Under the pieces are notes generated by a model that saw nothing but the letters and a program-made list of their open reading frames with translations, did not search any database and was not told where the DNA came from. The translations under genes were made by a program, and so were the position numbers. A stretch of DNA of 64,000 nucleotides from an uncultured Gemmatimonadota bacterium (GTDB lineage Bacteria; SM23-81; DAOVCL01): NCBI GenBank assembly GCA_964626665.1, contig CAZVGK010000001.1, forward strand, positions 141,914 to 205,913. The letters are read 5' to 3'. This document shows positions 1,091 through 64,000 of the stretch, in pieces; position 1 is the first letter of the stretch; every line of letters begins with the position of its first letter.

Positions 1091-1145
1091 CTCAGTCTAA
1101 ATTTCCATTTTCCATCACTCAGGGCTCTGCCCTAACGGCACAGGA

Positions 1146-1205
1146 AAGTTTCATTTTTAATTCTTAATTGCTTTTTTCCGTGAGCTTCCGTGGTAAACTG
1201 TTAGC
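1146..1205. repeat. Repeat that is the inverted copy of 32247-32312
   Basis: Reverse complement matches 32247-32312 closely (estimated by eye at about 90 percent, one 6-nt indel). Confidence 0.7.
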
Positions 1206-8564: not shown

Positions 8565-8710
8565 GGAATGGACCTTCATCAATGATCAATTAACAATTAG
8601 CAATGGTCAATTAGCAAGTCTTAAAGAGGGAAAATCCTGAAGTGTCAATTTCCATTGATCATTGATTATTTCTGTGCCAGTCCGTGGCTATCGGTGGTGA
8701 ACAATTATTC
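8565..8710. repeat. Composite MITE-like intergenic repeat in the fliL-fliM spacer
   Basis: ccacggaa ... caattaacaattagcaatggtcaattagcaagtcttaaagagggaaaatcctgaagtgtcaatttccattgatcattg ... tttctgtgccagtccgtggctatcggtggtg. Confidence 0.7.
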
Positions 8711-8725: not shown

Positions 8726-9730
8726 ATGCCGGGTATCTTATCCCAGGAGGAGATAGACCAATTAGTTTCATCGGTGTCTGAGGGCAAAGGTCAGGGGAGA
8801 AGGCCCCCTGGCGCTGAAAAGGAGGCGATCCCCTATGACTTCCGCCAGCAGAACATAATTCCTAAGGGGTCTTTGCACGCCTTCCAGATAGTCCACAGCG
8901 ATTTTGCCAAATCCTTGAGTGGCTTTCTCCTGAGGAGCGTAAAGACCGAACTAATCGTGAACTTGGCCACTGTCAACACCATTCCCTTAGGGGAGTTTAT
9001 AAAATCGCGGGAGAATCCCACTTATCTAAATTTAGTAAGGCTGAAACCCTTTGAGGGCAACCTGATTATAGATTCCTCTCCTAACTTGGTCTTCCTTCTT
9101 GTTGACCTCCTCTTCGGGGGGACGGGCAGTCCTCCTTCTACAAACGGGTTAATTACCCATATGGAAAGGAAGTTCATGCGGAAACTGATGGAAGGTATGC
9201 TCGAGGAGTTCAAAACCACCTGGGAGAAGATAACCCTCTTTCATCCTAAGATCGAAGAGGAGGAAACCGACCCCTCAATTGTGGGCTCACCATCTAACCT
9301 GGAGAACGCAATGATGGTCATCTACGAATTGAGCCTGGAAAAGGGATCAGAAACCCACCACCTCCTGAGTTTTTGTTATAGCGCTAAACTCCTCAAATCC
9401 CTGGTGGCCGTTCTGGGCCAGAAGAGAGGGGGAGAGGAGAGGGAAGTCCCTCCGCAAGAGCGGGATCAATCGGGGAAATTGAGGAAGAGCTTGGGTCAAG
9501 TGGAGGTCCCGGTGGAGGCAAAGTTGGGTGAGGCCCACCTGACCATTAGGGATATGATTGACCTGCAGGCAGGGGACATCATCAGGCTGAGCAACTATGT
9601 GGGTGGAGATCTAACGGTTGAGGTGAAGGGAAAGCCAAAGTTTCTTGCCCGTCCTGGGGCTTACCGGGGCAAGGCGGCCGTAGTGGTTACCTCAACCCTG
9701 AAGGAAGGAGTGGTGAAAGATGGCGAGTAA
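8726..9730 (+). CDS. fliM: Flagellar motor switch protein FliM
   Basis: N-terminal CheY-P binding motif (ILSQEEIDQLV), middle FliM domain, C-terminal FliN-like domain. Confidence 0.9.
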   Translation: MPGILSQEEIDQLVSSVSEGKGQGRRPPGAEKEAIPYDFRQQNIIPKGSLHAFQIVHSDFAKSLSGFLLRSVKTELIVNLATVNTIPLGEFIKSRENPTYLNLVRLKPFEGNLIIDSSPNLVFLLVDLLFGGTGSPPSTNGLITHMERKFMRKLMEGMLEEFKTTWEKITLFHPKIEEEETDPSIVGSPSNLENAMMVIYELSLEKGSETHHLLSFCYSAKLLKSLVAVLGQKRGGEEREVPPQERDQSGKLRKSLGQVEVPVEAKLGEAHLTIRDMIDLQAGDIIRLSNYVGGDLTVEVKGKPKFLARPGAYRGKAAVVVTSTLKEGVVKDGE

Positions 9731-12825: not shown

Positions 12826-12920
12826 TTATACAATTATCAATTAGCAAGTTAAAATGAAATGAAGACCGAAGTGTCACTTTCCATTGATAATTGATAATTG
12901 ATCATGACCATTTCTTAGCG
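12826..12920. repeat. MITE-like intergenic repeat in the fliR-flhB spacer
   Basis: caattatcaattagcaagttaaaatgaa...gtgtcactttccattgataattgataattg...accatttcttagcggtgg; terminal inverted repeats caattatcaatt / aattgataattg. Confidence 0.7.
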
Positions 12921-20557: not shown

Positions 20558-20568
20558 GGGGAAATTTG

Positions 20569-20633
20569 CAATTATCAATTAACAATGAGCAATTAAGAAA
20601 TCCCCCCTATACAATGGAAAAAGAGCAGAAAGA
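20569..20633. repeat. Partial copy of the caattatcaat repeat upstream of the DUF342-like gene
   Basis: caattatcaattaacaatgagcaattaagaaa...acaatggaaaaag. Confidence 0.5.
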
Positions 20634-29999: not shown

Positions 30000-30150
30000 C
30001 CCTGTTTTTCTGTGCATAGTCCGTGGTTATCTGTGGTAAATTATTACTCAATTAACGATTAGCAAGTTAAAATGAAGCCAGAAAATCCTGAGATGCGGGC
30101 CATTTTCCATTGATAATTGTTCATTGACCATTTCTTGGTCTGTCCGTGGT
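30000..30150. repeat. Composite AT-rich intergenic repeat (MITE-like) in the rpsE-rpmD spacer
   Basis: Contains ctgtttttctgtgcatagtccgtggttatctgtggt, then caattaacgattagcaagttaaaatgaa...gaaaatcctga...ttccattgataattg...accatttcttgg...tccgtggtg; related copies at 8565-8710 and 12826-12920. Confidence 0.7.
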
Positions 30151-32246: not shown

Positions 32247-32395
32247 TAACAGTTTACCACGGAATCTCACGGAAAAAAGCAATTAAGAATTGAAAATTAA
32301 AAATGAAACTTATGCTGGCCCCTCCTGATCTCTGAAGACTGATCTCTGTTTTTCTGTGCTAGTCCGTGGTCATCCGTGGTGAAATATTCTCTCCT
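32247..32395. repeat. Intergenic repeat block in the rplE-rpsZ spacer
   Basis: 32247-32312 is the near-exact reverse complement of 1146-1205; 32345-32390 matches the ctgtttttctgtgc-tagtccgtggt block at 30000-30043. Confidence 0.7.
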
Positions 32396-35928: not shown

Positions 35929-36750
35929 TTAACCTCTCCTTCTGACTATGAGCTTATCCGAGGCCTTCTTCTTCCTTGTTTTATATCCCTTAGTGGCCAC
36001 TCCCCAGGGGGTGGTGGGATGCCTTCCTCCCGAGCTTTTCCCCTCACCTCCACCCATAGGGTGGTCAACGGGGTTCATGGCAACACCTCTGACTTTTGGG
36101 CGACGGCCCAGCCAACGGGTCTTTCCTGCCGTGCCAAAGGAGATCTTTTCGTGGTCTGGATTGCCTACCGTCCCAATGGTGGCTCCACATTGAGAGGGAA
36201 AGTTCCTTACTTCCCCGGAGGGAAGCCGCAACTGCACCCGTCTCCCTTCCTTGGCGACCACCTGGGCCCCCGCGCCTGCCCCCCGGACAATTTGCCCTCC
36301 CTTCCCTGGTTTGAGCTCCACATTGTGCACTATGGTGCCTAGGGGAACTCTTATTAGGGGAAGAAAATTGCCCACTCTGATCTCGGCCTGGGGTCCGGAG
36401 CTGATGCTGTCTCCTGGCTTGAGCCCTAGGGGGGCAATTATGTATCTCTTCTCCCCGTCCGCATAATTGAGCAAGGCTATCCTTGCCGAGCGGTTGGGAT
36501 CATACTCAATGGAGGCCACCTTGGCTGGGATACCGAACTTGTCCCTTCTGAAGTCGATGATCCGATAGCGCCTCTTGTGCCCTCCCCCGCGATGTCGCAT
36601 GGTTATCCTTCCCCTGTTGTTCCTCCCTCCCTTTTTCTTCAGGGGACGGAGAAGCGGCTTCTCCGGTTGGGTCCTGGTCAACTCCTCAAATGTGGGGGAG
36701 GTCTTAAACCTCATCCCTGAGGTGATTGGATTTAGCTTCTTAATGGCCAT
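35929..36750 (-). CDS. rplB: 50S ribosomal protein L2
   Basis: [25 protein letters not shown]...; conserved C-terminal GGGEGK. Confidence 0.95.
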
Positions 36751-36839
36751 AACTTCTTTCTCAATTTAAGCGTTTCGCTAAAGCCTTAAACACGAATTCC
36801 ACAAATATACAAATAGCACGAACTACAATTCTTGTAAAT

Positions 36840-36900
36840 TCCCAGGGGATCTGTTTTTAGGGATCCTCACTCTTAATTCACATTTCTGTTTTTCTCTGAG
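36840..36900. repeat. Short AT-rich repeat in the rplB upstream spacer, shared with 43105-43150
   Basis: aggatcctcactcttaattcacatttctgtttttctctgagggatcc here versus aggatcctcattcttaattcaaaattcttaattgcc at 43110-43146. Confidence 0.5.
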
Positions 36901-37025
36901 GGATCCCACTAATCAGCAGTCAGCTCCCCCCAATTTCCAATTTTCGCCCTTACGAGTATCGACTCTTCTATTCATGTAGATTCGTTTATTCGTGTCATTT
37001 GTGTTCTAAAGCTTCTACTTTGGCC

Positions 37026-40000
37026 TTATTTGAGTAACACCATTTTTCTGGTAAGCGAGAAATCTCCTGCTTGAAAACGGCAAAAATAGATACCACTTGT
37101 CACCTCTTTTCCACTCCGATCCTTGCCATCCCAGTAAGTTTTGTAATACCCACTTGACTTATCCTCATCCACCAGAGTTTTCACTAATTGCCCTTTTATA
37201 TTATAGATCTTGAGGGTCACATAGGTGTTTCCCGCGAGTCCGTAATTGATCTCCGTGATTAGGTTAAAAGGATTAGGGTAGTTCTGGGAGAGGGTAAACA
37301 CAGATGGCACTGGAGATTCGTTGCACGAGGGTACGGACTTTTTATCCTCTCGAACATAATGGCCGGTGGTGACCAGGACGAAATCCCTCTCATAATCACT
37401 CAACTGCTTGGGGGCAGAAAAGGCCAGCCTCACCTCTTGCCCAGGAATCAACTCGGCATAGACTCCATCTGGCTGCAAAAGGGACTTCAGGACAGAACCA
37501 TTTGCTGAGTGAAGGGCCTTAGCCAGTGGACAACTCCGAATCTTTAAGGACACATCTTCAGCCCCAACCAGCCCAATAAAATCTAAATCATAAGGTATCT
37601 GCCAAAGGAGACGCACCTCTACCTCTCTCCCCTCAGATACTCTCCATGGCAACTCTACCAACTCCGTATACTTGTTCTCCCTATAACTGATTCCCAATAC
37701 TGTCTGAGATTTGGGGAAATCATCTCCAATAATCAACATAGGTTCCGCTTTGGGACGCCTTTTGCTCTGGTCTTTAGCAACCGTTCCACCTATGACCAAG
37801 GCCACTTTCCTAATCCCTTTAACCTGGCCGAAATTAACCGTGAGCTCATCCCCTCCTCTCCCCCTGAAAACCAGACCATCCGCCGCTGAAACATATTTTG
37901 AGAATTCTCCACCCAAAGAATCAACAGCAGATATTGGGCCAGTCAGCTTCTTGTAACCCAATATCTTTCCCGATGTGCTAACTGCAACCTTAACTTCAGA
38001 TGGATGCTCCACCGCCATAAGCTGTAGCTGATCGATCCAGGAGTGTTCATTTTCAAATTCGCGAAGCTCAAGATAGTAGTTTCCGTCTTCAGGGACAAGG
38101 GGTTGTTGAAGCTGGTAGTAATCGCTTATGTCCTTACCCTCATTCTCCAGCAGTTCAGCAAGAGGTAGAAGGTTATTGTCCTCTACACTCTTCTCTCCAT
38201 CCCAGGTAAACACATAGGGACAACCATTGTAGGGCGAATGATGATGATAAAAAGCTCCCATATCTGCCCTTGTCCCATCAGGATCCTTTGGACTAAGGGG
38301 ATAACCTGTATCTATGCAAGGTGAACCCGCTTGTAGGTGATAATCACCATTGGCAGAATTTAAGAACATTGGATCAGCAGATATATCTTCTCTACCTACT
38401 GCACAACCCTGGTAGTTAACGCCATTACCCCATAGGTCATTGTAAGATATGTTTGGGAAAAGATCAACATCACTATAAATACCATAATCGCTATTACTGG
38501 TGATTATGGTATTTGTAATAGTCAGATAGCAGTTATCAATGCATCGAATACCCGTGTTATTACCAGGGATCGTGTTGTTGATAATATTTGGACAGCATTG
38601 TAGTGTGCATTGAACAGCAATATTATTATTAGTGAGCAAATTCCTCTCAATATCGGGGGAGGCAGAAAACATACAACCTATCCCAAAATGTGACATATCG
38701 GTAATGGTATTACTACGGATTTTGCAGAGATGAGATGATGACCCCCAGCAGAGGATACCATAGGTATCATCACCGTTGCCAAGGATTGAGTTGTTACTAA
38801 TAGTTAGATAGTTAGAAGTAGGTGAGCAGGCTAATCCCTCGTTTTCAACAGTAATCTTATTGTGGGAAATCTCCCCCCACCCATTAGCGACAACAGCATA
38901 TTGACAGTGACTTATCTCGCTGTTGCTTATGGTGGCAAATGAATTGAACCAGACCCCTTGATAGGCGTCTTTTATGGCGCAAAAATTTAAAGTTAAATTA
39001 CCACCATCGCCAATATGGGTGGATATCCCTCCCCAATCTGAGATAGAAGGGGCCGAAGTATTTGATGAACAAAAGGTAATTTCGTAGTCATCTACCCCGA
39101 TAGCCCTTAATGCCCCATCCACCAAAAGCTCACATTTATCTGGATAAAGCCCTATATTTTGGACATCACTATTTGCCGAGAAGTAAACAGTAACCCCAGG
39201 GTCTATAGTGAGGAGGGCTCCATCATCCACAGTTACATCGCCATATACATAGATGTCCCCTGACCAGGTGGTGTTTTCAGTAATATGTCCATGAACTCCA
39301 CATGCAAGTTCGGTTTCATAAGGTATGTTGTTGTGTTTAGTAACTGTAACCTTCAACTCATCATAGGTGGAAAAAGAGGTGTTGAAGGTCGCCTCTCCGT
39401 TAGCATCGGTATATTGGATTTCGTGATAGTCCTCACTCTCTTTCCATAGACATACCAAGGCATCCGGAACACCAGCATTGATAGTAATACTGCTGGGGCC
39501 GATCTGATAGAAGCAGGGATGGGAGACGGCAAGAGGTTGAGGCACCCCTGTCCAGATCCGCAGGGCCGGATCCCCAAGGACATGGAAATCCTCGAACTCA
39601 ACCCTGGTTACCTCGGGGGTAGGTGCCCATTTTGAAGGATATCCTGCCCCACCTGTGAGGACATATTTGTCGAACATCCAGAACTTGCCGTAGTTCAGGA
39701 TCGCACCCAACCGGTCTGTCGGGCTACCGATCTGTGTGCCGCAGTACCCGGGGTCGAAGTCGTCCCAGATGGCGTCGTAGAACCCCTTGCAAAGCTCATC
39801 GTTATACCCGCTGTAGCTGATCCTGGTCGAGCCGATGAAGCCCACAACCCCCTTCCCCTGGGCCTTCAACAGTGCCTCTCCCAGGCAATCCGTGATCAGA
39901 TAATCGGGGGAGTCCAGATCGGTCTCCCCATCGAACCATCCGGTCCGGCAATTAATGCTGAACATCACCGGGAGCTTATCACCGTTACCCAGGCTGGGAA

Positions 40001-41471
40001 TATCCTCGGTGACGAACCACGGCTTATTCCAACCATTGTAGCCACCAGATGGGGCATTATAGGAGTCTCCGTGATCCCGATGATTGACTAAGAAACATCC
40101 CTGGTTGATCGCATCGATCACGTCCTGGGTGGTGCCATCGAAGGTCAGATGCCCCGGGATGGGATCTCCATTGTGGTAGTACTGAGGGGTTGACCCTATT
40201 GAGCAGGTGTAAACCCTCTGACGGTCATACCCCTCGCCCTCTAAGAAATCCTGGACCACCTCAGAGGTGTAAATGAAAAACCTGTCCTCCCGGCCATCAG
40301 GTTTGAAGTCCTCGAAATGGCCCGCCAACAGAACCCGGTTGAACCACTCCGAGCTTGTTGTATACGGATCCCGCTCATACCCCAGGATCTTGTCCACGAC
40401 TATCCCGATATCCGACTCATCCACCGGCAACCTCCCCACCAGGATATCGGGGAAATCGACCAACTGAGTGTCAGGTGGGTCGTTCTCTGTATCGACTGTG
40501 GCGTAGTAGAGATCAGTCCCGACCTTTTCGTCTCCAAATGGATGAGGATACTTGTAATGGACTGGTAGAAGATCTGCATCGCCGACCAGAAGGAGAAAAG
40601 ATGGGGCCGGATCCCAGGTGTCATAGGCAACCTGGACATAATCGGCGATCTGGTCAGCCGTGGGATCACCCCCTAACTCCGAGAGCTTGACGACTCTGGT
40701 CTTGAGTCCTGTCCGCTGCCTCCATTCAGCTAAAGGCAGGATCTCATCGTAAAGGTCGTCATGCACCATGATCAGGTAGTCCGCCCCGTCGCCACCCTTC
40801 CCCTTCCCCCCACCCACTGGTTCGTAGTTGAGGGCCAGCCTGTTGAGCATAGACCGAAAATGGGGGGAATCCTTGGGGCTGGCCACGGATCCGGCACCAC
40901 TCACGCTCACCCTGAGCTCGGGATAGACCCTCAACTGCCCGGTAACAGGATTGTGCTGCACCGGGTAGAGGATGACCAGGACAAGCCTATGACCCCGAAG
41001 TACCCTGGGAAAGCTGAGGGCGACTATGTTCTTCGGGTAAAAGCCGTCCTCGGAATATAGGGAGTCATCCCTGACGAACTCGGTCGTGTCGTCCCACTCG
41101 ATCCGTGGCTCCTGGGCCGGATAGACCAGATACCCATCCAGGATCTGACTGGTCGAGTCGATGATGGTGACCGTGGGCTCGACCCCGGGCTCGATCTCCA
41201 TCAGTATGGCCACGGTGGGGAGCTCTGGCCGGCCGATCTCGGCGATATGCCCGCCGCCGGAAAACCTCAGCAGTTGATAGGTATCCCCCTCGGCCTCCAT
41301 GTCGTGGCTGATCAGACCATATGTCTCCAGCTCGATGATTTCCGAGCCAGAAAGGGTAATCTGCGGCCTGGTCGGAGTGGTCGCATCCCCAAAGGAGACC
41401 CACATTCCGTAACCAGCGCTGGGGACAAATCCCAGCAAGGCCACCACTATAAGAAAACGAATCGCCTTCAT
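37026..41471 (-). CDS. Secreted multidomain gingipain-like cysteine peptidase (family C25 fold) with parallel beta-helix repeats and a Por/T9SS-type C-terminal sorting domain
   Basis: Signal peptide; His region VNHRDHGDS and Cys region LPVMFSINCRTGWFDG with ...LGDPALRIWTGVP, resembling the gingipain catalytic domain; Asn/Gly/Ile-rich beta-helix repeats; C-terminus LSQNYPNPFN...IYNIKGQLVKTLVD...GIYFCRFQAGDFSLTRKMVLLK. Confidence 0.75.
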   Translation of the reverse strand: MKAIRFLIVVALLGFVPSAGYGMWVSFGDATTPTRPQITLSGSEIIELETYGLISHDMEAEGDTYQLLRFSGGGHIAEIGRPELPTVAILMEIEPGVEPTVTIIDSTSQILDGYLVYPAQEPRIEWDDTTEFVRDDSLYSEDGFYPKNIVALSFPRVLRGHRLVLVILYPVQHNPVTGQLRVYPELRVSVSGAGSVASPKDSPHFRSMLNRLALNYEPVGGGKGKGGDGADYLIMVHDDLYDEILPLAEWRQRTGLKTRVVKLSELGGDPTADQIADYVQVAYDTWDPAPSFLLLVGDADLLPVHYKYPHPFGDEKVGTDLYYATVDTENDPPDTQLVDFPDILVGRLPVDESDIGIVVDKILGYERDPYTTSSEWFNRVLLAGHFEDFKPDGREDRFFIYTSEVVQDFLEGEGYDRQRVYTCSIGSTPQYYHNGDPIPGHLTFDGTTQDVIDAINQGCFLVNHRDHGDSYNAPSGGYNGWNKPWFVTEDIPSLGNGDKLPVMFSINCRTGWFDGETDLDSPDYLITDCLGEALLKAQGKGVVGFIGSTRISYSGYNDELCKGFYDAIWDDFDPGYCGTQIGSPTDRLGAILNYGKFWMFDKYVLTGGAGYPSKWAPTPEVTRVEFEDFHVLGDPALRIWTGVPQPLAVSHPCFYQIGPSSITINAGVPDALVCLWKESEDYHEIQYTDANGEATFNTSFSTYDELKVTVTKHNNIPYETELACGVHGHITENTTWSGDIYVYGDVTVDDGALLTIDPGVTVYFSANSDVQNIGLYPDKCELLVDGALRAIGVDDYEITFCSSNTSAPSISDWGGISTHIGDGGNLTLNFCAIKDAYQGVWFNSFATISNSEISHCQYAVVANGWGEISHNKITVENEGLACSPTSNYLTISNNSILGNGDDTYGILCWGSSSHLCKIRSNTITDMSHFGIGCMFSASPDIERNLLTNNNIAVQCTLQCCPNIINNTIPGNNTGIRCIDNCYLTITNTIITSNSDYGIYSDVDLFPNISYNDLWGNGVNYQGCAVGREDISADPMFLNSANGDYHLQAGSPCIDTGYPLSPKDPDGTRADMGAFYHHHSPYNGCPYVFTWDGEKSVEDNNLLPLAELLENEGKDISDYYQLQQPLVPEDGNYYLELREFENEHSWIDQLQLMAVEHPSEVKVAVSTSGKILGYKKLTGPISAVDSLGGEFSKYVSAADGLVFRGRGGDELTVNFGQVKGIRKVALVIGGTVAKDQSKRRPKAEPMLIIGDDFPKSQTVLGISYRENKYTELVELPWRVSEGREVEVRLLWQIPYDLDFIGLVGAEDVSLKIRSCPLAKALHSANGSVLKSLLQPDGVYAELIPGQEVRLAFSAPKQLSDYERDFVLVTTGHYVREDKKSVPSCNESPVPSVFTLSQNYPNPFNLITEINYGLAGNTYVTLKIYNIKGQLVKTLVDEDKSSGYYKTYWDGKDRSGKEVTSGIYFCRFQAGDFSLTRKMVLLK

Positions 41472-41488
41472 CCTAACCTCCTTGACTT

Positions 41489-42703
41489 TTATCTCACCAA
41501 CATCAACTTCCTCACATTGGTGAGGGCTCTCCCTCTTCTGTTCTCAGCCCGCAACAGGCAAAGATATATCCCACTTGGTACTTCCTTCCCTCCCCCATCC
41601 CTCCCATCCCAGATCACCCGATGCTCTCCAGGTGGCTGTGGGCCATCCACCAGTGTCCGCACCACCTGTCCCAAGATGTTGTAGACCCTCAAGGTGGTTG
41701 GAACTGACCACTGACCACTGACCACTGGGGAAGGGAGGTGGTAGGGGATGACGGTACCCGAATTGAACGGGTTCGGATAGTTCTGGCCCAGGGCGAAAAA
41801 CCCTGGAACGATGGCCTTATCCTCAGATGGAACCCAATTGTGTGGCCTTGACCTGGGGTTTCTGACCCCATCGACCTCCCCAAATTGAGGACCTGTCGGC
41901 TCCGTGGAGGTGGTGGTGCAATCACCGTCGCCGATCGTGTCCACAGGAAAGCCAAGGGTGGTGTCGATATTCCCCTCACACTGCAGGTAGTTGCCGTCCA
42001 GGAAGCCCCCTCCCATGATGGTGTGGGATCCAAAGTTCCAACCGATGGTGAATATAATGTCGTTCTCCAACAACAAAGGATTGCTCGGTTCCAACCCAAA
42101 GAGCGCTCCTCCTCCTCCCGACCTCAAAAAGCAATATTCGATCACTGGAAAGGAAGAACTGTCACAGGCGACCAAAAACCCCCCCGTCTCAACCTGACTG
42201 CTCGTCCACATCAGCTTGCAGTGGGAGATGGTGGGAGAGGCGTTAGATATCTGGATCATTATACCCTCGGCACTGCTGGTGTGCTCCACCACACAGTACC
42301 TAAGAATGCACTCCGAATCCACACAGGTATCGTTAAATTTTATCCCCCCCCAGGCAGTCCAAGGCCACTCTTCACCATCGTCGGTGAAGCTAATCATCAC
42401 ATCTGGCTTCCCGCAGGCCTCTAAGGCCCCGTTGATGGTCAACCCAATAGCCTCCTCGAACTTCAACACCATCCCCGGATCTATGACCAGCTTGTCGTTG
42501 GCCGAGATGGTTAGGTTCCCACTTATCAGATAATACCCCTCATCCCGCCAGGTGACATCATCGGTAAGCTCGTCCACCATCTGCATGGTGTAAACCGTCC
42601 CATCCCCAGGGGAAACCCAATCGGCCCAGGCCAAAAGGGGGAAACACCAGATGATGCTGATAAAGACGATTAAACTCCTCCATTCTCTCATCCTCACCTC
42701 CAA
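41489..42703 (-). CDS. Secreted protein with Por/T9SS-type C-terminal sorting domain; central domain not assigned
   Basis: Signal peptide; C-terminus ALGQNYPNPFN...LRVYNILGQVVRTLVDGPQPPGEHRVIWDGRDGGGKEVPSGIYLC. Confidence 0.65.
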   Translation of the reverse strand: MEVRMREWRSLIVFISIIWCFPLLAWADWVSPGDGTVYTMQMVDELTDDVTWRDEGYYLISGNLTISANDKLVIDPGMVLKFEEAIGLTINGALEACGKPDVMISFTDDGEEWPWTAWGGIKFNDTCVDSECILRYCVVEHTSSAEGIMIQISNASPTISHCKLMWTSSQVETGGFLVACDSSSFPVIEYCFLRSGGGGALFGLEPSNPLLLENDIIFTIGWNFGSHTIMGGGFLDGNYLQCEGNIDTTLGFPVDTIGDGDCTTTSTEPTGPQFGEVDGVRNPRSRPHNWVPSEDKAIVPGFFALGQNYPNPFNSGTVIPYHLPSPVVSGQWSVPTTLRVYNILGQVVRTLVDGPQPPGEHRVIWDGRDGGGKEVPSGIYLCLLRAENRRGRALTNVRKLMLVR

Positions 42704-42790
42704 TTCCTTACCTCACCAATATCAACTTCCTCACGTTGGTGAGAGCTCTTCCTCTTCTGTAATATAGGGACACTTCCCAATAATTGTTAA
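42704..42790. repeat. Duplicate of the 404-aa gene 3' end plus junction (ghost of a CTD gene 3' end)
   Basis: 42691-42790 aligns with 41461-41560 (…ctcaccaaYatcaacttcctcacRttggtgagRgctctYcctcttctg…); on the - strand it would encode ...RALTNVRKLILVR-stop. Confidence 0.6.
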
Positions 42791-42935
42791 GTCCTCAAGC
42801 ACTATCGTCCCCTCTGTCTCCCTCGCTTATCTTTTCACCTTTGTACCAAATCTCTATAAGCCTTTGTCTTTCGTATTTTCGATCTCTGAATTCTTTTTGC
42901 CCACTCCTGTAGATTCTTTTATCCGCGTCACCTGT

Positions 42936-42959
42936 CCCGCACTTATGCATAAGTGCGGG
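42936..42959. repeat. Perfect 24-nt palindrome in the rplW-CTD gene spacer
   Basis: cccgcacttatgca|tgcataagtgcggg. Confidence 0.5.
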
Positions 42960-43104
42960 GTGAATATTCCAAAGCTCTACAGGTCAAGGGTTCTTAGGGC
43001 TTAAGCTCCTTCGCCGGACTTGGATAGAAGGGGCCTCAAAAGGCCCTTAACCTTGCACTAAAGTGCGGCAGAATGGACATTCCTCTAAGTTCCCAAAGGT
43101 CAGA

Positions 43105-43150
43105 GATCGGTCTTTAAGGATCCTCATTCTTAATTCAAAATTCTTAATTG
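43105..43150. repeat. Short AT-rich repeat downstream of rplW, shared with 36840-36900
   Basis: aggatcctcattcttaattcaaaattcttaattgcc; the ttcttaattg module also occurs at 1160-1180 and, inverted, at 32275-32295. Confidence 0.5.
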
Positions 43151-43153
43151 CCT

Positions 43154-43444
43154 TTACCCCCCCTCAAAGATGCTGATGATGTCTCCTTCCTTTAGTTTGA
43201 CAATAGCCTTCTTCCAATTTGACCGCCTGCCCTCGTATCTTCCCATTCTCTTCGGTTTCCCCTTCATGAGCATAGTCTTTACATCCAGGACATTCACCCG
43301 AAAGAGCTTCTCCACTGCCCACTTCACCTCTATCTTGTTAGCCCTTCTATCGACCACAAAGGCATATTGATTGCTCGCTTCCTTGAGATTGTTGCTCTTC
43401 TCCGTGATATAAGGCCTTTTGATGATTGTGCGGGGGTCTCTCAT
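43154..43444 (-). CDS. rplW: 50S ribosomal protein L23
   Basis: IIKRPYITEKSNNLKEASNQYAFVVDRRANKIEVKWAVEKLFRVNV. Confidence 0.9.
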   Translation of the reverse strand: MRDPRTIIKRPYITEKSNNLKEASNQYAFVVDRRANKIEVKWAVEKLFRVNVLDVKTMLMKGKPKRMGRYEGRRSNWKKAIVKLKEGDIISIFEGG

Positions 43445-44067
43445 GATAAAGCCTCCTTAAGGGTCGAAATGGCCTCTGGGGTGATAAGGAGGAAATCTGA
43501 ATTTAATATCTCATAGGCATTGGTATTCATAGCCGTTCGTAACTTTAAGCCCGCGAGGTTAGAGGTTGCCCGGAGAAGGTTGTGGTCAGCAGAGACCACC
43601 AGCAAAAGGCCCTTCTTCCCCTTTAACCCTAATCTTTCCAAGAAGGAGGCGAAGGCCTTTGTCTTTGGCGACTCCAGTTTTACCTCATCTAATCCCCAGA
43701 CTGCACCCCTTTGGGCCAGGGAGGAAAGGGCGGATTTGAGGGCTAACCGCCTCATTTTTTTGGGAATTTCCTTGTGCCTGGGGTGAGGAGAAGGACCAAA
43801 GGTTTTGCCCCCACCCACCCAGAGGGGAGAGTTGGAGCTTCCTGCCCTTGCCCTTCCGGTGCCCTTCTGTCTCCAGGGCTTGGCCCCTCCCCCCTTCATT
43901 TGGGAGCGGCCTTTAGCCATTGCTGTCCCCTGGCCCTGGTTATAGGAGTAGGCCTTAAGGTAGGCATAAAGGGCCCCTTGGTTAGGGGCGATCTCAAAGA
44001 CCTCTTTGGGGAGCTTCAAACTACCTATCTCTTCCCCGTTAAGGGAGTAGTGGGGGATCTCTTTCAT
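43441..44067 (-). CDS. rplD: 50S ribosomal protein L4
   Basis: GGGAKPWRQKGTGRARAGSSNSPLWVGGGKTFGP. Confidence 0.95.
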   Translation of the reverse strand: MKEIPHYSLNGEEIGSLKLPKEVFEIAPNQGALYAYLKAYSYNQGQGTAMAKGRSQMKGGGAKPWRQKGTGRARAGSSNSPLWVGGGKTFGPSPHPRHKEIPKKMRRLALKSALSSLAQRGAVWGLDEVKLESPKTKAFASFLERLGLKGKKGLLLVVSADHNLLRATSNLAGLKLRTAMNTNAYEILNSDFLLITPEAISTLKEALS

Positions 44068-44687
44068 CCTTGAACCTTTCTGACAATGAGGTAGCTCTGG
44101 GGTGGCCCGGGAAGAGATCCCTTGATGGCCAATAGATTCTTTTCAGGGATGAGCTTAACTAAGACTGAATTGCGCACAGTTACCCTTCTCCCTCCAGTCT
44201 TCCCCGCCATCTTTGTCCCCTTATAGACCCGGGAGGGACTGGAGGAGGCACCGATGGAACCTGGCGCCCGATGCCTGTCTGACTGCCCATGAGTCTTTGG
44301 CCCTCCCCGAAAGCCATATTTTTTCACTACGCCCATAAACCCCTTCCCCTTGGATATTCCCACCACATCCACGGTCTCCCCTGGGGAAAAGATATCCGCT
44401 TTTATCTCGGTTCCCACTTTCATCTCCTCCCCCCAGTCCTTAAATTCCCGCAATATCCGATAGCTGGTTACCCCGGCCCCTTTGAAATGGCCCAAGAGGG
44501 GTTTGGTTACCTTCTTCTCCTTGATGGGCTCAAAGCCCAATTGCAGGGCGCTGTAGTCGTCCCTCTCCGGGGTCTTTACCTGCACGACTTGGCAGGGGCC
44601 AGCCTCGACCAAGGTCACTGGTAGGGATTTTCCGTCCTCTCCGAAGATGGTGGTCATCCCCAATTTTTTGCCGATTATTCCCCTCAT
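44064..44687 (-). CDS. rplC: 50S ribosomal protein L3
   Basis: MRGIIGKKLGMTTIFGEDG...; FRGGPKTHGQSDRHRAPGSIG. Confidence 0.95.
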   Translation of the reverse strand: MRGIIGKKLGMTTIFGEDGKSLPVTLVEAGPCQVVQVKTPERDDYSALQLGFEPIKEKKVTKPLLGHFKGAGVTSYRILREFKDWGEEMKVGTEIKADIFSPGETVDVVGISKGKGFMGVVKKYGFRGGPKTHGQSDRHRAPGSIGASSSPSRVYKGTKMAGKTGGRRVTVRNSVLVKLIPEKNLLAIKGSLPGPPQSYLIVRKVQG

Positions 44688-44690
44688 CGC

Positions 44691-44999
44691 TCAGACTCTT
44701 ATCTCCACATCCACTCCGGCAGGAAGGTCTAACCTCATCAAGGAGTCTACCGTCTGAGGAGTGGTATCTTCAATGTCTATAAGCCTTTTGTGGATTCTGG
44801 TCTCAAATTGCTCCCGGGATTTTTTGTCCACATGGGGGGAGCGTAAAACAGTATAGATGGACCGCTTGGTGGGTAGAGGTATGGGACCTAAGACCTTGGC
44901 CCCTGCCCTCTTAGCTGCCCTGACGATCTCACCGGTTGAGCGGTCAAGCATCACATGATCATAGGCTTTTAGCCTAATTCTTATCTTCTGGCCTGGCAC
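44691..44999 (-). CDS. rpsJ: 30S ribosomal protein S10 (GTG start)
   Basis: [43 protein letters not shown]; GGAGG RBS. Confidence 0.95.
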
Positions 45000-45041
45000 C
45001 TATTAACCTCCTCTTTCTTGAGACTGAAACTCATCAAGATA

Positions 45042-46934
45042 CTATTTGAGAAGCGCCATCTTTTTAGCAACTTTAACATCCCCAGCTTGGATTTTATAAA
45101 AATAAACCCCACTTGCCACCTCTTGCCCATTGTCGTCTCTTCCTCCCCAACAGATATTATACCGGCCGGCTCTTTGTCTCTCATCTACTAAGGTTTTAAC
45201 CTTCTGTCCTAAGAGATTGTAAACAACCAAACTCACCTGGGCATCCATCGGAAGTTCATAGCCTATCTCGGTCTCCGGGTTGAAAGGATTGGGGAAATTC
45301 TGGGCCACAAAAAACTCCTTTGGCAATTTTTCGTCTTCATTGGGTTCTACAAACACTTCGACTGAGTAAGACGCCTCCATAACCCCCCAGATGTTATAGA
45401 CCTCGATGGTTATTGTGCTGTCCCAAACTTCATCCATAGGATCTTCGTAACTAAAGGTGAAGCCTGTCACTTGGTCATTAGGCGGATAACCTCCAAAGTC
45501 AGTTGGATGAATGGTTATCCCATTATGTGTGGGGTTGTCGTCCCCACAGTTGTGTTGGTCATCATAGTCCACATACTTATCATAACTCCATCCTCCTGTG
45601 CCCGAGCCGTATACCCGCACCCTATTCAGATCAAGTTCGTTCCCAGGCACTGTCACCCAAAAAGAGGCTCTCGGCGAATGGGAGCTAACACCCCATATGG
45701 TCATATTTTCAGTATCTGTATGGGGCAAAACATTCATCGGGTTCCTTAAGTAAGAAAAGGCGGTTCCACCCAGGTAATCCTCAGCATGTAAGTGATCAAG
45801 CCCAATATGCCTAATCCCTCCAATTCTGGTCAGTCCAGCAAAAACACTATCTCCAAAATTTACACTGGGATTTACATGCACATATTCCATACGCTGATTT
45901 GGAATCACAGCATCTCTAATCCTAACCGACTGGCTGCCTATGTGATCAACAACACCGGTAAAAACAGCGTAAACATCATCCTCTGTCGCAGGATTATCAT
46001 CATCATCAATGTCAAGTCCGCCATGCCAATCAAAGGTAGTGTCATTCCCAGAGATTAGGATTCTCGGCCCAAAGGGACTGGTTAAACTATGAAGGGGTGT
46101 GGTGTTTCGAGACAAAGGCCAGTAATAATTCTCCGTTCTAATTCTCAGAATAACATCGTCAACAAATGCGCCTTTATGTGTCTGAGTGCCATCGCTTTCG
46201 AAAGCAAACGCTATCCAAACTTGAGGGTGACCACAAACATTACCTATGTCAGGGACATTGGTCAGATCGAAGTTTTCAAAGCGCCAGACATCCCCTCCAT
46301 CGCCATAGGCCGCATAACCTGAGAAATTTGTGCCATCGATTGATGCAAGTCGAGAGAACATATCAGCTTCGTACATCGTACGACACCAATAATAAAAGTG
46401 CAGCTCCGCATCGGTGACGTTGCCAACACTAAGGTCGCAAGGACCCCAAATCATAAAGGTGAGAACATTATTGGCATAATCATCAAACTCTGGATCAAGG
46501 CCATTTACCCCATCCCGGCAACACCATGCACTATATTTTCCTGAATGAGGATTATAGTCATCTTTACCCCATAAATGACCGGTGGGATTGCCTGTGTGCC
46601 CAACATCTCGGCGGCTCCAAGCATATCTGGGAAAAGACGATTCGAAATCTTCGGTCATAATGTTAACCCAATGTGGCAGAAGGAGGGCATCATTCCCATC
46701 TTTGATGTTTCCATTCTGGCTGTTTCCCATATGTATAATGCGTACACTTTCTGAAAGTTCTGAATTTTTGCCACAAGAAACCAATGCTTTATCTCCATCC
46801 AGCAATTGATAGTGAATCTTCTGCGAGCTGACAAATTCCCCGATTTCAACTTTAGCTAAAGCAACGGTAGCACCTATTAGAGGAAACCCTATTATAAAAG
46901 AAGCACATATTCCTAATTTCCAATGAACCTGCAT
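45042..46934 (-). CDS. Secreted protein with a possible M23-like metallopeptidase region and a Por/T9SS-type C-terminal sorting domain
   Basis: Signal peptide; HGGLDI and LDHLHAE resemble the M23 HxxxD and HxH motifs (tentative); C-terminus FFVAQNFPNPFN...VYNLLGQKVKTLVD...GVYFYKIQAGDVKVAKKMALLK; AT-rich third codon positions. Confidence 0.6.
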   Translation of the reverse strand: MQVHWKLGICASFIIGFPLIGATVALAKVEIGEFVSSQKIHYQLLDGDKALVSCGKNSELSESVRIIHMGNSQNGNIKDGNDALLLPHWVNIMTEDFESSFPRYAWSRRDVGHTGNPTGHLWGKDDYNPHSGKYSAWCCRDGVNGLDPEFDDYANNVLTFMIWGPCDLSVGNVTDAELHFYYWCRTMYEADMFSRLASIDGTNFSGYAAYGDGGDVWRFENFDLTNVPDIGNVCGHPQVWIAFAFESDGTQTHKGAFVDDVILRIRTENYYWPLSRNTTPLHSLTSPFGPRILISGNDTTFDWHGGLDIDDDDNPATEDDVYAVFTGVVDHIGSQSVRIRDAVIPNQRMEYVHVNPSVNFGDSVFAGLTRIGGIRHIGLDHLHAEDYLGGTAFSYLRNPMNVLPHTDTENMTIWGVSSHSPRASFWVTVPGNELDLNRVRVYGSGTGGWSYDKYVDYDDQHNCGDDNPTHNGITIHPTDFGGYPPNDQVTGFTFSYEDPMDEVWDSTITIEVYNIWGVMEASYSVEVFVEPNEDEKLPKEFFVAQNFPNPFNPETEIGYELPMDAQVSLVVYNLLGQKVKTLVDERQRAGRYNICWGGRDDNGQEVASGVYFYKIQAGDVKVAKKMALLK

Positions 46935-46952
46935 AACTCCCCCTACTCTAAG

Positions 46953-48353
46953 TCAAAGACTAGCCTTAACTTTTTGAACCACTTTTCTTCCCCTATCCAA
47001 AATGATGAAAGACCTCATCCCATTTTCGTAACTCATCATAGGGAGGATGCGAACTGTGTCATAAGACTTCTTGCATATTTCACCTGTTTCTAAACTAAAG
47101 ATAACGGCAACCTCCTCAAATTTTAAGCTAACTCTCTCCCTTCTGCGCATCGTAGTAACAAAGCTCTTGTTAATGGTAGATGCGCAACATTGATGCCAAT
47201 AACTATTCCAGTCTTTCCCTAAAACTTTTCTCCATCTTCTTTTTCCAGTAAGAAGATCAAAGATATCTATCGTAGATGGAGGCCCACTTTCGGCAAGGAG
47301 ACTCTTAGAGTCGTCAATAAAACAGAACCAGTTTAATCCTCCTACTTTTTCTATCCGCCTTTCGGGCCCCATTGCTGCCTCTATCGTCACAAAGTCTTTG
47401 CTGTTCCACAATATATCCCCTTCATTGCTTAATACTACCAGTCTCCTCTCCCCGCCGCTTCTCTCTTCACCCGGAAGATTGGAATAGTCCACCGCAATGG
47501 CCATAAACTTCCCACTTTCACTCACCTCAAGTTGCGGTATTTCTGTTGGATTAAAAAACAATCTAAAGTGAAGGGGATCTCCTAATCTTTCACCAATATC
47601 AATTTCCCACTTCGTTTTTAAATTCTTTACATTAAAAAGAAGCAACTTGACATAAGGCCTTTCCAGGTTGTATCCCTTGAAATAGACGACTTCGCTGTCA
47701 TTTAAAAATGTGGCCACCCAATTAAATTCCGTGCGTATAATTTTAGAACCTCTCTCAATGGATTCCTTCCCTTTGTCCCACCATAACTCCTCACCAGTTC
47801 TATTATCAAAAACCCTGAAATATCCACCCCACCTTTCGACACCGCTTTTGTGAGTTGTTATGGCATAGTCACCTTTGGGCGATAAGGTGAGTCCTGGTGC
47901 AAAAAGAGGAGTCTCCCACTTGAGATTGCCATCCTTGTCGTAACTCTTCGTAATCACCCACTCACATCCGGCACGAGAATTTATGATTACTTCTCCCCCT
48001 TCCGCTGAGATCGACACATTATCCACTCCACCATAATATTCGCCACGTTCATCTGGCTTCAGGTCAAATCTCTTCTCCCACAAAATATTTCCATTAGGCC
48101 CCAAATAGTAAACAACACTGCAAAGGCCTTCCCTCTTATCAAAAATATCTGTCAGAACAACTATGTTCTCATTGCCAACCTGGATGTCTCGTATCTTGCC
48201 TCCAAATTCCCTTTCCCAAATCAGCTTTGAGTTGGGGAATAAGCCCTTTGCCGGCGATTCCGCTATGGCACTGCCTACCCACATCATCAACAACGCCAAT
48301 ACAGAGAGAGCCAGAACCCTCAGGATTCCTTTTCTCAACACTTGCTTCCCCAT
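46953..48353 (-). CDS. Hypothetical secreted or membrane-anchored protein (466 aa), possibly beta-propeller-like
   Basis: N-terminal signal/anchor (LRVLALSVLALLMMWVGSAIA); Trp/Gly-rich repeats; AT-rich codon usage like the neighbouring 630-aa gene; 18 bp upstream of it. Confidence 0.55.
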   Translation of the reverse strand: MGKQVLRKGILRVLALSVLALLMMWVGSAIAESPAKGLFPNSKLIWEREFGGKIRDIQVGNENIVVLTDIFDKREGLCSVVYYLGPNGNILWEKRFDLKPDERGEYYGGVDNVSISAEGGEVIINSRAGCEWVITKSYDKDGNLKWETPLFAPGLTLSPKGDYAITTHKSGVERWGGYFRVFDNRTGEELWWDKGKESIERGSKIIRTEFNWVATFLNDSEVVYFKGYNLERPYVKLLLFNVKNLKTKWEIDIGERLGDPLHFRLFFNPTEIPQLEVSESGKFMAIAVDYSNLPGEERSGGERRLVVLSNEGDILWNSKDFVTIEAAMGPERRIEKVGGLNWFCFIDDSKSLLAESGPPSTIDIFDLLTGKRRWRKVLGKDWNSYWHQCCASTINKSFVTTMRRRERVSLKFEEVAVIFSLETGEICKKSYDTVRILPMMSYENGMRSFIILDRGRKVVQKVKASL

Positions 48354-48449
48354 TTTAAAGCCTCCAAATTAGAGATATACCCTCCCATAGTAACCACCAA
48401 AATTTCTCCTAAACCTCACCCCTTTCCTTTGAGGAAAACAGAAATACTC

Positions 48450-49655
48450 CTATTTTATAACCTCTGCTACGACCCCTGCTCCCACGGTTCTTCCCCCCTC
48501 CCTGATGGCAAACCGTAGCTCCTTCTCCATCGCTATCGGCGTGATTAGCTCCCCCTCTATGGTCACATTATCCCCGGGCATGACCATCTCTACCCCCTCC
48601 GGTAGCTTTACCACCCCAGTCACATCCGTGGTGCGAAAATAAAACTGCGGCCTATACCCACCGAAGAAAGGTGTATGCCTACCCCCTTCCTCCTTCGTCA
48701 ATACATAGACCTCACCCTTAAACTTGGTATGCGGGGTGATCGACCCCGGGGCTGCTATTACCATCCCCCTCTCTAACTCATCCCTGTTTACCCCCCGCAA
48801 CAGCAAACCCACATTGTCCCCAGCCTCTGCCCGATCCAGGATCTTCCGAAACATCTCTACCCCAGTCACTACCGTCTTCTTCGTTTCCCTGATCCCTACC
48901 CTCTCCACCGCATTCCCTACCTTCACCGTCCCCCTCTCTACCCTCCCTGTCCCTACTGTCCCTCGCCCAGTAATGGAAAATACATCCTCCACAGACAGCA
49001 AGAAGGGCTTATCCAAATCCCTCTTCGGCTGAGGTATATACTTGTCCACCGCATCCATTAGCTCATAGATGCTCTTGAAGGCCTCACTCTCCTTCACCTC
49101 AGGGTTGGCTGCTGCCTCCATCGCCCGCAGGGCACTTCCCCTGATCACCGGCACCTCATCCCCCGGGAAGCTATACTCCGTGAGCAACTCCCTGACCTCT
49201 AACTCTACCAAATCCAATAGCTCAGGATCATCTACCTGATCTACCTTGTTCATATAGACTACTATATAGGGCACCCCTACCTGCCTGGCCAAAAGGATGT
49301 GCTCCCTGGTCTGGGGCATCGGCCCATCAGCAGCGGATACCACCAGGATGGCCCCATCCATCTGCGCCGCCCCGGTGATCATATTCTTCACATAATCGGC
49401 ATGCCCCGGACAGTCTATGTGCGCATAATGCCTGGCGGCGGTCTCATACTCCACATGGGCTATCGCTATGGTTAACCCCCGCTCCTTCTCCTCAGGAGCA
49501 TTGTCTATAGAATCAAATGTCCGGGCCTCCGCCAGGCCCTTCCTATGCAAGATCATGGTAATCGCCGCGGTCAAAGTGGTCTTCCCATGATCCACATGCC
49601 CAATAGTCCCTATGTTTATGTGCGGCTTCGTGCGCTCAAACTTCTTCTTCGCCAT
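48450..49655 (-). CDS. tuf: Elongation factor Tu
   Basis: [15 protein letters not shown]...DCPGHADY... Confidence 0.97.
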
Positions 49656-63608: not shown

Positions 63609-63758
63609 TTACCTTGTCTCCCGGTGAATGGTATGTTTCTTACAGAACTTGCAATATTTTTTAAAGCTTAGCCTATCCGGATGTTTCCTCTTGTTCTTCG
63701 TAGTGGTATAATTTCTCCGCTTACACTCCGTGCAGGCCAAGGTAACTATTTCTCTCAT
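63609..63758 (-). CDS. rpmG: 50S ribosomal protein L33 (49 aa, below the ORF-track size cutoff)
   Basis: Hand translation: [49 protein letters not shown] with C-x2-C...C-x2-C zinc ribbon; start ATG overlaps the tuf copy 2 stop (ATGA). Confidence 0.85.
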
Positions 63759-64000
63759 TTTATGACCTCAGCTACGACCCCTGCTCCCACGGTTCTTCCC
63801 CCCTCCCTGATGGCAAACCGCAACTCTTTTTCCATGGCGATGGGCGTGATCAGCTCCCCCTCTATGGTCACATTATCCCCAGGCATGACCATCTCTACCC
63901 CCTCCGGTAGCTTTACCACCCCAGTCACATCCGTGGTGCGAAAATAAAACTGCGGCCTATACCCACCGAAGAAAGGTGTATGCCTACCCCCTTCCTCCTT
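63755..64000 (-). CDS. tuf: Elongation factor Tu, second copy (3' portion only; continues beyond the window)
   Basis: 63766-64000 is nearly identical to the 3' end of tuf at 48451-48690, with a few synonymous differences and a different stop codon. Confidence 0.9.

What the first reader, a model, noticed from the sequence alone, without database searches (positions are those of the whole stretch)
41461..42790. About 90 bp junction (CTD 3' end plus RBS and start) duplicated upstream of both adjacent CTD genes
41461-41560 (the 3' end of the 404-aa gene through the start of the 1481-aa gene) aligns closely with 42691-42790, upstream of the 404-aa gene. The upstream copy still encodes ...RALTNVRKLILVR-stop in frame but has no gene body behind it. 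The shared sequence contains an inverted repeat (ctcaccaa...ttggtgag). This looks like the ghost of a third tandem CTD gene or a conserved recombination joint used to shuffle CTD-protein cassettes.
Basis: seen in the sequence. Interest (0 to 1): 0.55.

Follow-up and report, generated by a model that had tools for sequence, protein, structure and literature searches.

The report
Leftover tail of a lost gene
The repeated junction is real but ordinary: the upstream copy is the last 53 bases of a third secreted-protein gene, left behind when its two neighbour genes were moved into the middle of a ribosomal-protein operon.

Summary
All genes here are on the minus strand. The duplication is real but shorter than reported. 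A 53-nt ungapped core (41489-41541 vs 42708-42760) is 91% identical, followed by a Shine-Dalgarno/ATG block, about 72 nt in all. There are two copies in 64 kb and none are expected by chance.

The upstream copy is the 3' remnant (16 codons plus stop) of a third CTD gene. In a related MAG (L002, GCA_030670005.1) an intact 296-aa CTD gene, P0001, lies directly upstream of the 400-aa gene's homolog. Window 42760->42246 aligns colinearly with it at 84%, and homology stops exactly at 42760/42761. All five ghost-versus-tail differences are third-codon positions, so the parent gene was under coding selection. The two copies resemble each other because neighbouring CTDs are paralogs (78% aa).

The hairpin is not conserved in a more distant ortholog pair (L089). 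The motif is absent from the other two CTD gene ends, so a recombination joint is not supported.

The more unusual finding is the context. Ghost, 400-aa gene and 1481-aa C25 peptidase form a 6.2-kb insertion between rplW and rplB inside the S10 operon. It is flanked by ~50-nt duplicates of the spacer and is absent from the four relatives whose spacer could be read.

The parts
42708..42760 (-). Ghost: 3'-terminal remnant (16 codons RRGRALTNVRKLILVR plus TAA, plus 2 nt of a 17th codon) of a lost P0001-like CTD gene
   Evidence: 91% identical to 41489-41541. Colinear with the L002 P0001 tail 9604-9656 inside one 521-nt HSP. No ORF body upstream.
41489..41541 (-). Homologous 3' end (RRGRALTNVRKLMLVR plus TAA) of the intact 400-aa CTD gene; the reference copy of the repeat
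42689..42707 (-). Spacer with Shine-Dalgarno GGAGGTGA and the ATG start of the 400-aa gene
   Evidence: Start confirmed by homolog N-termini and by the public gene call of 400 aa.
41469..41488 (-). Spacer AAGTCAAGGAGGTTAGG plus the ATG start of the 1481-aa gene. This junction is old, being conserved as AGTCAAGGAGGTTA in L089.
42712..42743 (-). Hairpin CTCACCAA-N16-TTGGTGAG in the ghost
   Evidence: -13.9 to -15.2 kcal/mol, z about -2
41493..41524 (-). The same hairpin inside the coding 3' end of the 400-aa gene
   Evidence: -16.7 kcal/mol, z -2.6
41489..42691 (-).
   Evidence: Pfam PF13860 39.6 bits. TIGR04183 19.7 bits, below its cut-off of 23.
37026..41471 (-). 1481-aa C25-family peptidase with propeptide, beta-helix and a T9SS type A sorting domain
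42761..42790 (-). Promoter-like site TTAACA-18-TATATT that ends exactly at the ghost breakpoint (consensus match only)
   Evidence: 10 of 12 matches; 11 sites found vs 7.4 expected in the region
43086..43136 (-). Left copy of the ~50-nt spacer segment duplicated on both sides of the 6.2-kb insertion
   Evidence: L085 1204-1253 matches both flanks. Repeat D4, 85% over 40 nt.
36828..36878 (-). Right copy of the duplicated spacer segment, continuous with the ancestral spacer up to rplB
43154..43444 (-). rplW (L23), last S10-operon gene before the insertion
35929..36750 (-). rplB (L2), first S10-operon gene after the insertion

Best explanation
The upstream copy is a gene remnant. The lineage once had three adjacent secreted-protein genes with paralogous C-terminal sorting domains: a P0001-like 296-aa gene, the 400-aa gene and the C25 peptidase. 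A segment starting 53 nt before the stop codon of the first gene and running through the other two now sits in the rplW-rplB spacer of the S10 ribosomal-protein operon. The truncated tail came along as the left end of that segment. It resembles the 3' end of the 400-aa gene because the CTDs of the neighbouring genes are tandem paralogs, not because the sequence is a dedicated site. The shared Shine-Dalgarno/ATG block is a generic translation-start signal. The hairpin is a by-product of the codons Leu-Thr-Asn...Leu-Val-Arg. Shown: homology, colinearity with the intact gene in a relative, the sharp breakpoint, the codon-position pattern, and absence of the insertion from relatives. Inferred: the direction of the move, that the remnant is now neutral or serves only as 5' leader of the 400-aa gene, and the insertion mechanism. 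For the mechanism, recombination that duplicated ~50 nt of the spacer is the simplest fit.
For: P0001 is the only close homolog of the 400-aa protein's CTD (78% aa). It ends in ...GIYLCLLRAENGRRRVLTNVRKLMLVK. In L002 and L003 it lies directly upstream of a homolog of the 400-aa gene. One blastn HSP joins window 42760-42246 to L002 9604-10121 (84%, 521 columns). No similarity exists upstream of 42760, either to L002 or to the region upstream of P0001 (Smith-Waterman score 19 vs shuffle mean 18.6). The five ghost-vs-tail differences are all third-codon positions, four synonymous and one Met->Ile. By my own calculation the chance of that is about (1/3)^5 = 0.004. The CTDs of the 400-aa gene and P0001 are 75-88% identical at nucleotide level in every 17-codon block, so the tail is not exceptionally conserved. 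Another pair of adjacent CTD genes in L084 also has near-identical 3' tails. Relatives L084, L085, L086 and L088 have rplW followed directly by rplB. The same arrangement as in the window is found on 21 contigs that carry the identical 1481-aa protein, so it is not a single misassembly.
Against: At protein level the ghost matches the window's own 400-aa tail (15 of 16 residues) better than the L002 P0001 tail (12 of 16). Its SD-ATG block resembles the 400->1481 junction rather than the L002 orthologous spacer. So some gene conversion, or origin from a duplicate of the 400-aa gene's own tail, cannot be excluded. The 3' end of the 400-aa homolog in L002's genome was not recovered because the contig ends. 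The rest of the window's genome could not be searched for further copies or for an intact P0001 ortholog: the motif scan of metagenome contigs returned nothing, not even the window itself. The flank structure is more complex than a single insertion. A second short repeat, D6, lies in the opposite order relative to the L086/L088 spacer.
Confidence: 0.85

Rival explanations
1. The ghost descends from the 400-aa gene's own 3' end, not from a P0001 ortholog. Either the 400-aa gene with its downstream junction was tandemly duplicated and the upstream copy was mostly deleted, or the ghost was overwritten by gene conversion from the 400->1481 junction.
For: Ghost and 400-aa tail are 15/16 identical at protein level, against 12/16 for the L002 P0001 tail. 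GGAGGT(G/T)AGGATGA is shared between the two window junctions but absent from the orthologous spacer in L002.
Against: The 7 nt right after the stop codons differ (GGAATT vs AAGTCAA), interrupting any conversion tract. Ghost-L002 identity (45/53) equals that of the adjacent colinear gene (84%). Five synonymous-type differences argue against a recent copy. Either way, the result is still a ghost of a third tandem CTD gene.
Confidence: 0.12
2. The repeated element is a functional RNA leader. The hairpin plus Shine-Dalgarno sequence is kept upstream of both genes to stabilise the transcript or to tune translation initiation or coupling, and the ghost is retained by selection as the 5' UTR of the 400-aa gene.
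For: The hairpin folds in both copies and in L002 (z -1.6 to -2.6). A promoter-like TTAACA-18-TATATT ends exactly at the ghost boundary, so a transcript could start inside the ghost. The 5' arm CUCACC could alternatively pair with GGUGAG in the SD of the 400-aa gene (read from the sequence).
Against: The hairpin is absent in the orthologous 402-aa->C25 junction of L089 (z +0.8). There are no compensatory changes, because all copies are close relatives. Differences follow codon structure, not stem structure. No Rfam match was found. Promoter-like sites are not enriched in the region (11 vs 7.4 expected).
Confidence: 0.1
3. The sequence is a recombination joint (att/attC-like site) at which CTD-gene cassettes are exchanged.
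For: It sits at two cassette boundaries and contains an inverted repeat. The left end of the translocated segment falls at the edge of this sequence. CTD genes occupy different positions of the ribosomal cluster in related genomes.
Against: The motif is missing at the 3' ends of the 1481-aa and 630-aa CTD genes. It is found only at orthologous positions in 90 loci. The 6.2-kb insert contains only the two CTD genes, with no integrase or transposase ORF. The breakpoint is at the outer edge of the 53 nt, not within the hairpin. The codon-position pattern shows coding constraint.
Confidence: 0.03

Closest known systems
Truncated gene remnants (3' pseudogene fragments) left by deletion or translocation next to tandem paralogs
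   Same: In-frame homology to the end of a functional gene, no gene body, and an intact syntenic ortholog in a relative.
   Different: The remnant is very short (16 codons) and shows no decay yet. It now lies inside a ribosomal-protein operon.
T9SS type A C-terminal sorting domains (TIGR04183 / PF18962, with FlgD_ig PF13860-like fold) of secreted cargo proteins
   Same: The 1481-aa and 630-aa proteins pass the curated cut-offs. The 400-aa protein and P0001 have the same ...NYPNPFN...GIY...K(L/M)xL(V/L)(K/R) architecture.
   Different: The 400-aa protein and P0001 reach only 19.7-19.8 bits on TIGR04183 (cut-off 23) and are called only by FlgD_ig. Whether this organism has a T9SS was not tested.
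[quoted passage not shown]
   Same: A small number of unrelated genes is inserted between conserved cluster genes. The str-S10 boundary (tuf-rpsJ here) is a documented insertion point.
   Different: The insertion studied here lies inside the S10 operon, between rplW and rplB. It carries secreted-protease genes and is flanked by ~50-nt duplicates of the spacer.
Integron attC sites, shufflon sites and other cassette recombination sites
   Same: An imperfect inverted repeat at a cassette boundary.
   Different: There is no recombinase and no recurrence at other cassettes. The repeat lies within coding sequence and evolves as codons.

Membership tests
Gene remnant / pseudogene fragment | Sequence homology to part of a functional gene | tested here: met
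   48/53 nt to the 400-aa gene tail and 45/53 to the L002 P0001 tail.
Gene remnant / pseudogene fragment | No complete ORF or gene body | tested here: met
   An in-frame stop lies 21 codons upstream. tblastn with P0001 finds no other piece in the window.
Gene remnant / pseudogene fragment | Intact gene at the syntenic position in a relative | tested here: met
   P0001 lies directly upstream of the 400-aa homolog in L002 and L003. A single colinear HSP covers the region.
T9SS type A sorting domain (TIGR04183 / PF18962) | Score above the curated cut-off, 1481-aa and 630-aa proteins | tested here: met
   TIGR04183 34.0 and 33.2 bits (cut-off 23). PF18962 29.7 bits for the 1481-aa protein (cut-off 27).
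T9SS type A sorting domain (TIGR04183 / PF18962) | Score above the curated cut-off, 400-aa protein and P0001 | tested here: not met
   TIGR04183 19.7 and 19.8 bits, below 23. Both pass PF13860 FlgD_ig instead, at 39.6 and 39.2 bits (cut-off 27).
T9SS type A sorting domain (TIGR04183 / PF18962) | T9SS machinery (PorK/L/M/N, SprA, PorU/V) present in the genome | not tested
   Only 64 kb of the genome is available, and no such genes were looked for outside the window.
Site-specific recombination joint (att/attC-like) | Recurs at the boundaries of several independent cassettes | tested here: not met
   Two copies in the window. Absent after the 1481-aa and 630-aa genes. Found only at orthologous positions in 90 loci.
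Site-specific recombination joint (att/attC-like) | Cognate recombinase encoded nearby | tested here: not met
   The insert holds only the two CTD genes and its neighbours are ribosomal-protein genes.
Site-specific recombination joint (att/attC-like) | Structure conserved independently of the coding sequence | tested here: not met
   The hairpin is lost in L089 (z +0.8). Differences are confined to third-codon positions.
Intrinsic terminator | GC-rich stem followed by a U-run on the sense strand | tested here: not met
   No terminator-like site on the minus strand at 41493-41524 or 42712-42743. The hairpin is followed by (A/G)TAA and a purine-rich SD.
DDE-transposon or IS-mediated insertion | Transposase, terminal inverted repeats and a short (2-15 bp) target duplication | tested here: not met
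   No transposase ORF. No inverted repeat joins the insert ends. The flanking duplication is ~50 nt.
Described RNA families (Rfam 15) | Covariance-model match | tested here: not met
   Only one chance-level hit in 36000-49000 at E <= 1, and none at the junctions.

The most novel reading that the evidence does not exclude
In this uncultured lineage, modules of secreted CTD-cargo genes (including large C25 peptidases) may repeatedly relocate into the ribosomal-protein supercluster, by a process that duplicates tens of bases of the target spacer. They lie at tuf/rpsJ and rplW/rplB in this genome and after rplX in relative L084. The ghost would then mark the left end of such a module. It would have been kept because, with the adjacent promoter-like site and hairpin, it provides the leader that couples or insulates expression of the cargo genes from the surrounding essential operon.
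Probability: 0.12. Interest if true: 0.55.

Novelty: new member of a known kind. Interest (0 to 1): 0.27.

Why it matters
The duplicated junction itself matters little. It is a scar that records a lost third gene and shows that adjacent CTD genes arise by tandem duplication. Its practical use is as a marker, because it fixes the left breakpoint of a 6.2-kb segment carried into the S10 operon. That operon's gene order is among the most conserved in bacteria. Two or three independent interruptions of the ribosomal cluster by secreted-protein genes in one small clade would be worth a comparative study. Such a study could ask whether cargo genes exploit strong ribosomal promoters and how an essential operon tolerates a 6-kb insert. 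The result is also a caution for annotation: short in-frame CTD tails upstream of CTD genes should not be called as small ORFs or regulatory motifs without synteny evidence.

Tried and rejected
1. The metagenome-contig scan with a codon-degenerate tail pattern returned 0 hits, not even the window's own contig, so that collection cannot answer whether the motif occurs elsewhere in the genome.

2. The search for related loci with the N-terminal 300 aa of the 400-aa protein in metagenome contigs found nothing.

3. The genome-contig scan with L23 gave a best hit of 62% identity and no close relatives. It did not help with synteny or taxonomy.

4. The listing of cluster members returned no organism names, so the taxonomy is unresolved. 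The CTD hits point to the FCB-group candidate phyla (Zixibacteria, Marinimicrobia, Eisenbacteria).

5. The Rfam scan of 36-49 kb found nothing relevant.

6. I tested whether the ghost arose by an internal deletion that kept the P0001 promoter. The spacer 42761-43153 has no similarity to the region upstream of P0001 in L002, so this is rejected.

7. I tested whether the tail is unusually conserved at nucleotide level, which would hint at an RNA or DNA function. Block-wise identity between the paralogous CTDs is similar along the whole domain (38-45 of 51 nt per block, 44 in the tail), so this is rejected.

8. I considered a terminator or attenuator role for the hairpin. It has no U-run, so this is rejected.

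9. I tried to derive a single-step insertion model from the flank repeats. The ~50-nt 'D4' duplicate fits a simple target duplication relative to L085. The 'D6' pieces lie in the opposite order relative to L086/L088, so the history has more than one step and remains unresolved.

10. The L084 large protein shares only the beta-helix region with the 1481-aa protein (34% identity). The cargo genes at the two insertion sites are therefore not orthologs.
Full report
Observation. All genes in this part of the window are on the minus strand. The repeat finder reports a 53-nt ungapped direct repeat, 41489-41541 versus 42708-42760, at 91% identity. With one gap the alignment continues through GGAGGT(G/T)AGGATGA. 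The two similar stretches are therefore 41469-41541 and 42689-42760, about 72 nt. This is less than the ~90-100 nt reported, and the true offset is 1219-1220 rather than 1230. A 32-nt core pattern occurs exactly twice in 64 kb, with none in 100 shuffles. The downstream copy is the end of the 400-aa gene (...RRGRALTNVRKLMLVR*), followed by the SD and ATG of the 1481-aa gene. The upstream copy reads RRGRALTNVRKLILVR* in frame, followed by the SD and ATG of the 400-aa gene. It has a stop 21 codons upstream and no CTD-like sequence before it. The inverted repeat CTCACCAA-N16-TTGGTGAG exists in both copies and folds moderately well (-14 to -17 kcal/mol, z -1.8 to -2.6).

What the genes are. The 400-aa protein has a signal-peptide-like N-terminus and a C-terminal FlgD_ig-type domain. 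The 1481-aa protein is a C25-family peptidase with propeptide, beta-helix and a T9SS type A sorting domain. A third CTD protein (630 aa) lies at 45042-46934. Its 3' end and that of the 1481-aa gene do not carry the motif.

Origin of the upstream copy. The only close homolog of the 400-aa protein's CTD is P0001 (78% over the CTD), a 296-aa protein from two NCBI MAGs. It ends in ...GIYLCLLRAENGRRRVLTNVRKLMLVK. In L002 (GCA_030670005.1) and L003 (GCA_030629745.1), P0001 is followed after 22 nt by a homolog of the 400-aa gene, starting MRSKLIIVFISIIWCFPLLAWADWVSPGDG.... A single blastn HSP joins window 42760->42246 to L002 9604-10121 (84%, 521 columns). It covers the last 53 nt of P0001, the spacer and the first 148 codons of the downstream gene. 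Homology stops exactly at 42760/42761. The 393 nt between there and rplW have no similarity to P0001, to its upstream region, or to anything else in L002. The ghost is therefore the orthologous 3' remnant of a P0001-like gene.

Why the two copies are alike. The CTDs of the 400-aa gene and P0001 are paralogs, 77.5% identical over 338 nt, with similar identity in every 17-codon block (38-45 of 51 nt). The five differences between the ghost and the 400-aa tail are all third-codon positions: GGA/GGG, GCT/GCC, AAC/AAT, ATA/ATG and AGG/AGA. Four are synonymous and one is Met/Ile. By my own calculation the chance of that pattern is about 0.004. The two tails therefore diverged while both were translated, and the truncation is comparatively recent. 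Adjacent CTD genes with near-identical tails also occur in L084, so this is a normal by-product of tandem duplication.

Hairpin and RBS. The more distant ortholog pair in L089 (402-aa gene plus C25 peptidase, 66% nt identity, non-ribosomal context, own TTGACA-17-TAAAAT promoter) keeps the junction spacer AGTCAAGGAGGTTA. It does not keep the hairpin (z +0.8) and has no ghost. The orthologous P0001-to-400 spacer in L002 (GTTTGTGTTTTTTGGGTAGACC) is unrelated to the window's GGAATTGGAGGTGAGG. The SD/ATG similarity between the two window junctions is therefore best explained by the generic GGAGGT-N5-ATG signal. Limited gene conversion cannot be excluded, because the ghost matches the window's own 400-aa tail at 15/16 residues against 12/16 for the L002 P0001 tail. 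There is no U-run after the hairpin and no Rfam match. A promoter-like TTAACA-18-TATATT ends exactly at the breakpoint (42790-42761). This is a consensus match only, but it would make the ghost the 5' leader of the 400-aa gene.

Context. Upstream of the ghost lie rpsJ, rplC, rplD and rplW. Downstream of the 1481-aa gene lie rplB, rpsS, rplV and rpsC. The ghost and the two CTD genes thus form a 6.2-kb insertion inside the S10 operon. Relatives with L23 at 80-91% identity (L084, L085, L086, L088) have rplW followed directly by rplB, with spacers of roughly 130-230 nt. L085 positions 1204-1253 match both window 43136-43086 and 36878-36828. About 50 nt of the ancestral spacer is therefore duplicated on the two sides of the insert. 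A second short repeat, 'D6' (42867-42935 and 36967-37006), is homologous to the L086/L087/L088 spacer but lies in the opposite order. The history therefore has more than one step, and I could not reconstruct it.

The same arrangement is present on 21 contigs carrying the identical 1481-aa protein, which argues against misassembly. The 466-aa and 630-aa genes between tuf and rpsJ are also absent from L084 and L086-L088. L084 instead carries three CTD genes after rplX. Its large protein shares only a beta-helix region with the 1481-aa protein. Whether rplE resumes downstream in L084 was not seen, and that stretch contains a scaffold gap. Insertions between operons of this cluster, including str/S10, are documented (PMC8046335). 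An insertion within the S10 operon by secreted-protease genes is less usual.

Limits. The rest of this genome could not be searched. Both metagenome scans returned nothing, not even the window's own contig. The genome scan with L23 found only distant relatives. Taxonomy is unresolved. The 3' end of the 400-aa homolog and the C25 gene of L002's genome are missing because the contig ends.

Verdict. The duplication is real but shorter than stated. The 'ghost of a third tandem CTD gene' reading is right, with direct syntenic evidence. The 'recombination joint' reading is not supported. The feature is an ordinary gene remnant and deserves low interest. The surrounding insertion of CTD-cargo genes into the ribosomal-protein operon is the more noteworthy, though only partly explored, observation.

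Noticed in passing
window 36828-43136 (-): The ghost, the 400-aa gene and the 1481-aa C25 peptidase form a 6.2-kb insertion between rplW and rplB inside the S10 operon. It is flanked by ~50-nt direct duplicates of the ancestral spacer (43086-43136 and 36828-36878) and is absent from relatives L084, L085, L086 and L088.
   Followed up: yes
window 45042-48353 (-): A second insertion lies between tuf and rpsJ. It holds a 466-aa protein (weak beta-propeller/PQQ match) and a 630-aa T9SS-CTD protein. In L084 and L086-L088, tuf is followed directly by rpsJ.
   Followed up: partly
L084 6079-11927 (GCA_029932675.1): A relative has three CTD genes directly after rplX (L24): two tandem BNR paralogs with near-identical 3' tails and a protein of over 1333 aa with C25/FG-GAP/beta-helix domains. 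This is a different position in the ribosomal cluster from the window's insertions. The stretch contains a scaffold gap of Ns (7593-7691), and rplE downstream was not seen.
   Followed up: partly
window 42867-42935 and 36967-37006 (-): A second short repeat ('D6') is shared between the two spacers flanking the insert. It is homologous to the rplW-rplB spacer of L086/L087/L088, but the pieces lie in an order that a single simple insertion cannot explain.
   Followed up: partly
window 42936-42960 (-) and 43025-43046 (-): Two perfect or near-perfect hairpins lie in the spacer between rplW and the ghost: CCCCGCACTTATGCATAAGTGCGGG and GGGCCTTTTGAGGCCC. Neither is followed by a U-run. The whole 450-nt spacer folds better than shuffles (z -2.7).
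   Followed up: no
window 971-1176, 8575-8670, 12826-12899, 20564-20596, 30044-30125, 32275-32307: A family of AT-rich intergenic repeats of about 90 nt with internal dyad symmetry (CAATTATCAATTAGCAAGTTAAAATGAA ... TTTCCATTGATAATTGATAATTGA). It occurs in spacers of both the flagellar and the ribosomal gene clusters. A 39-nt piece near 1035-1073 also matches L002 1508-1546 at 92%.
   Followed up: no
window 48447-48695 and 63752-64000: A 249-nt direct repeat at 95% identity. It is the 3' end of tuf and of a second tuf copy at the window's edge.
   Followed up: no
window 1-21600 (+): A large flagellar gene cluster, inferred from ORF termini only (FlgE-like, MotA/B-like, FliM/N-like, FlhB/FlhA-like and FliA-like ends). 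The FlgD gene at about 1248-1910 is hit by the FlgD_ig-type CTD of P0001 in tblastn (38%).
   Followed up: no
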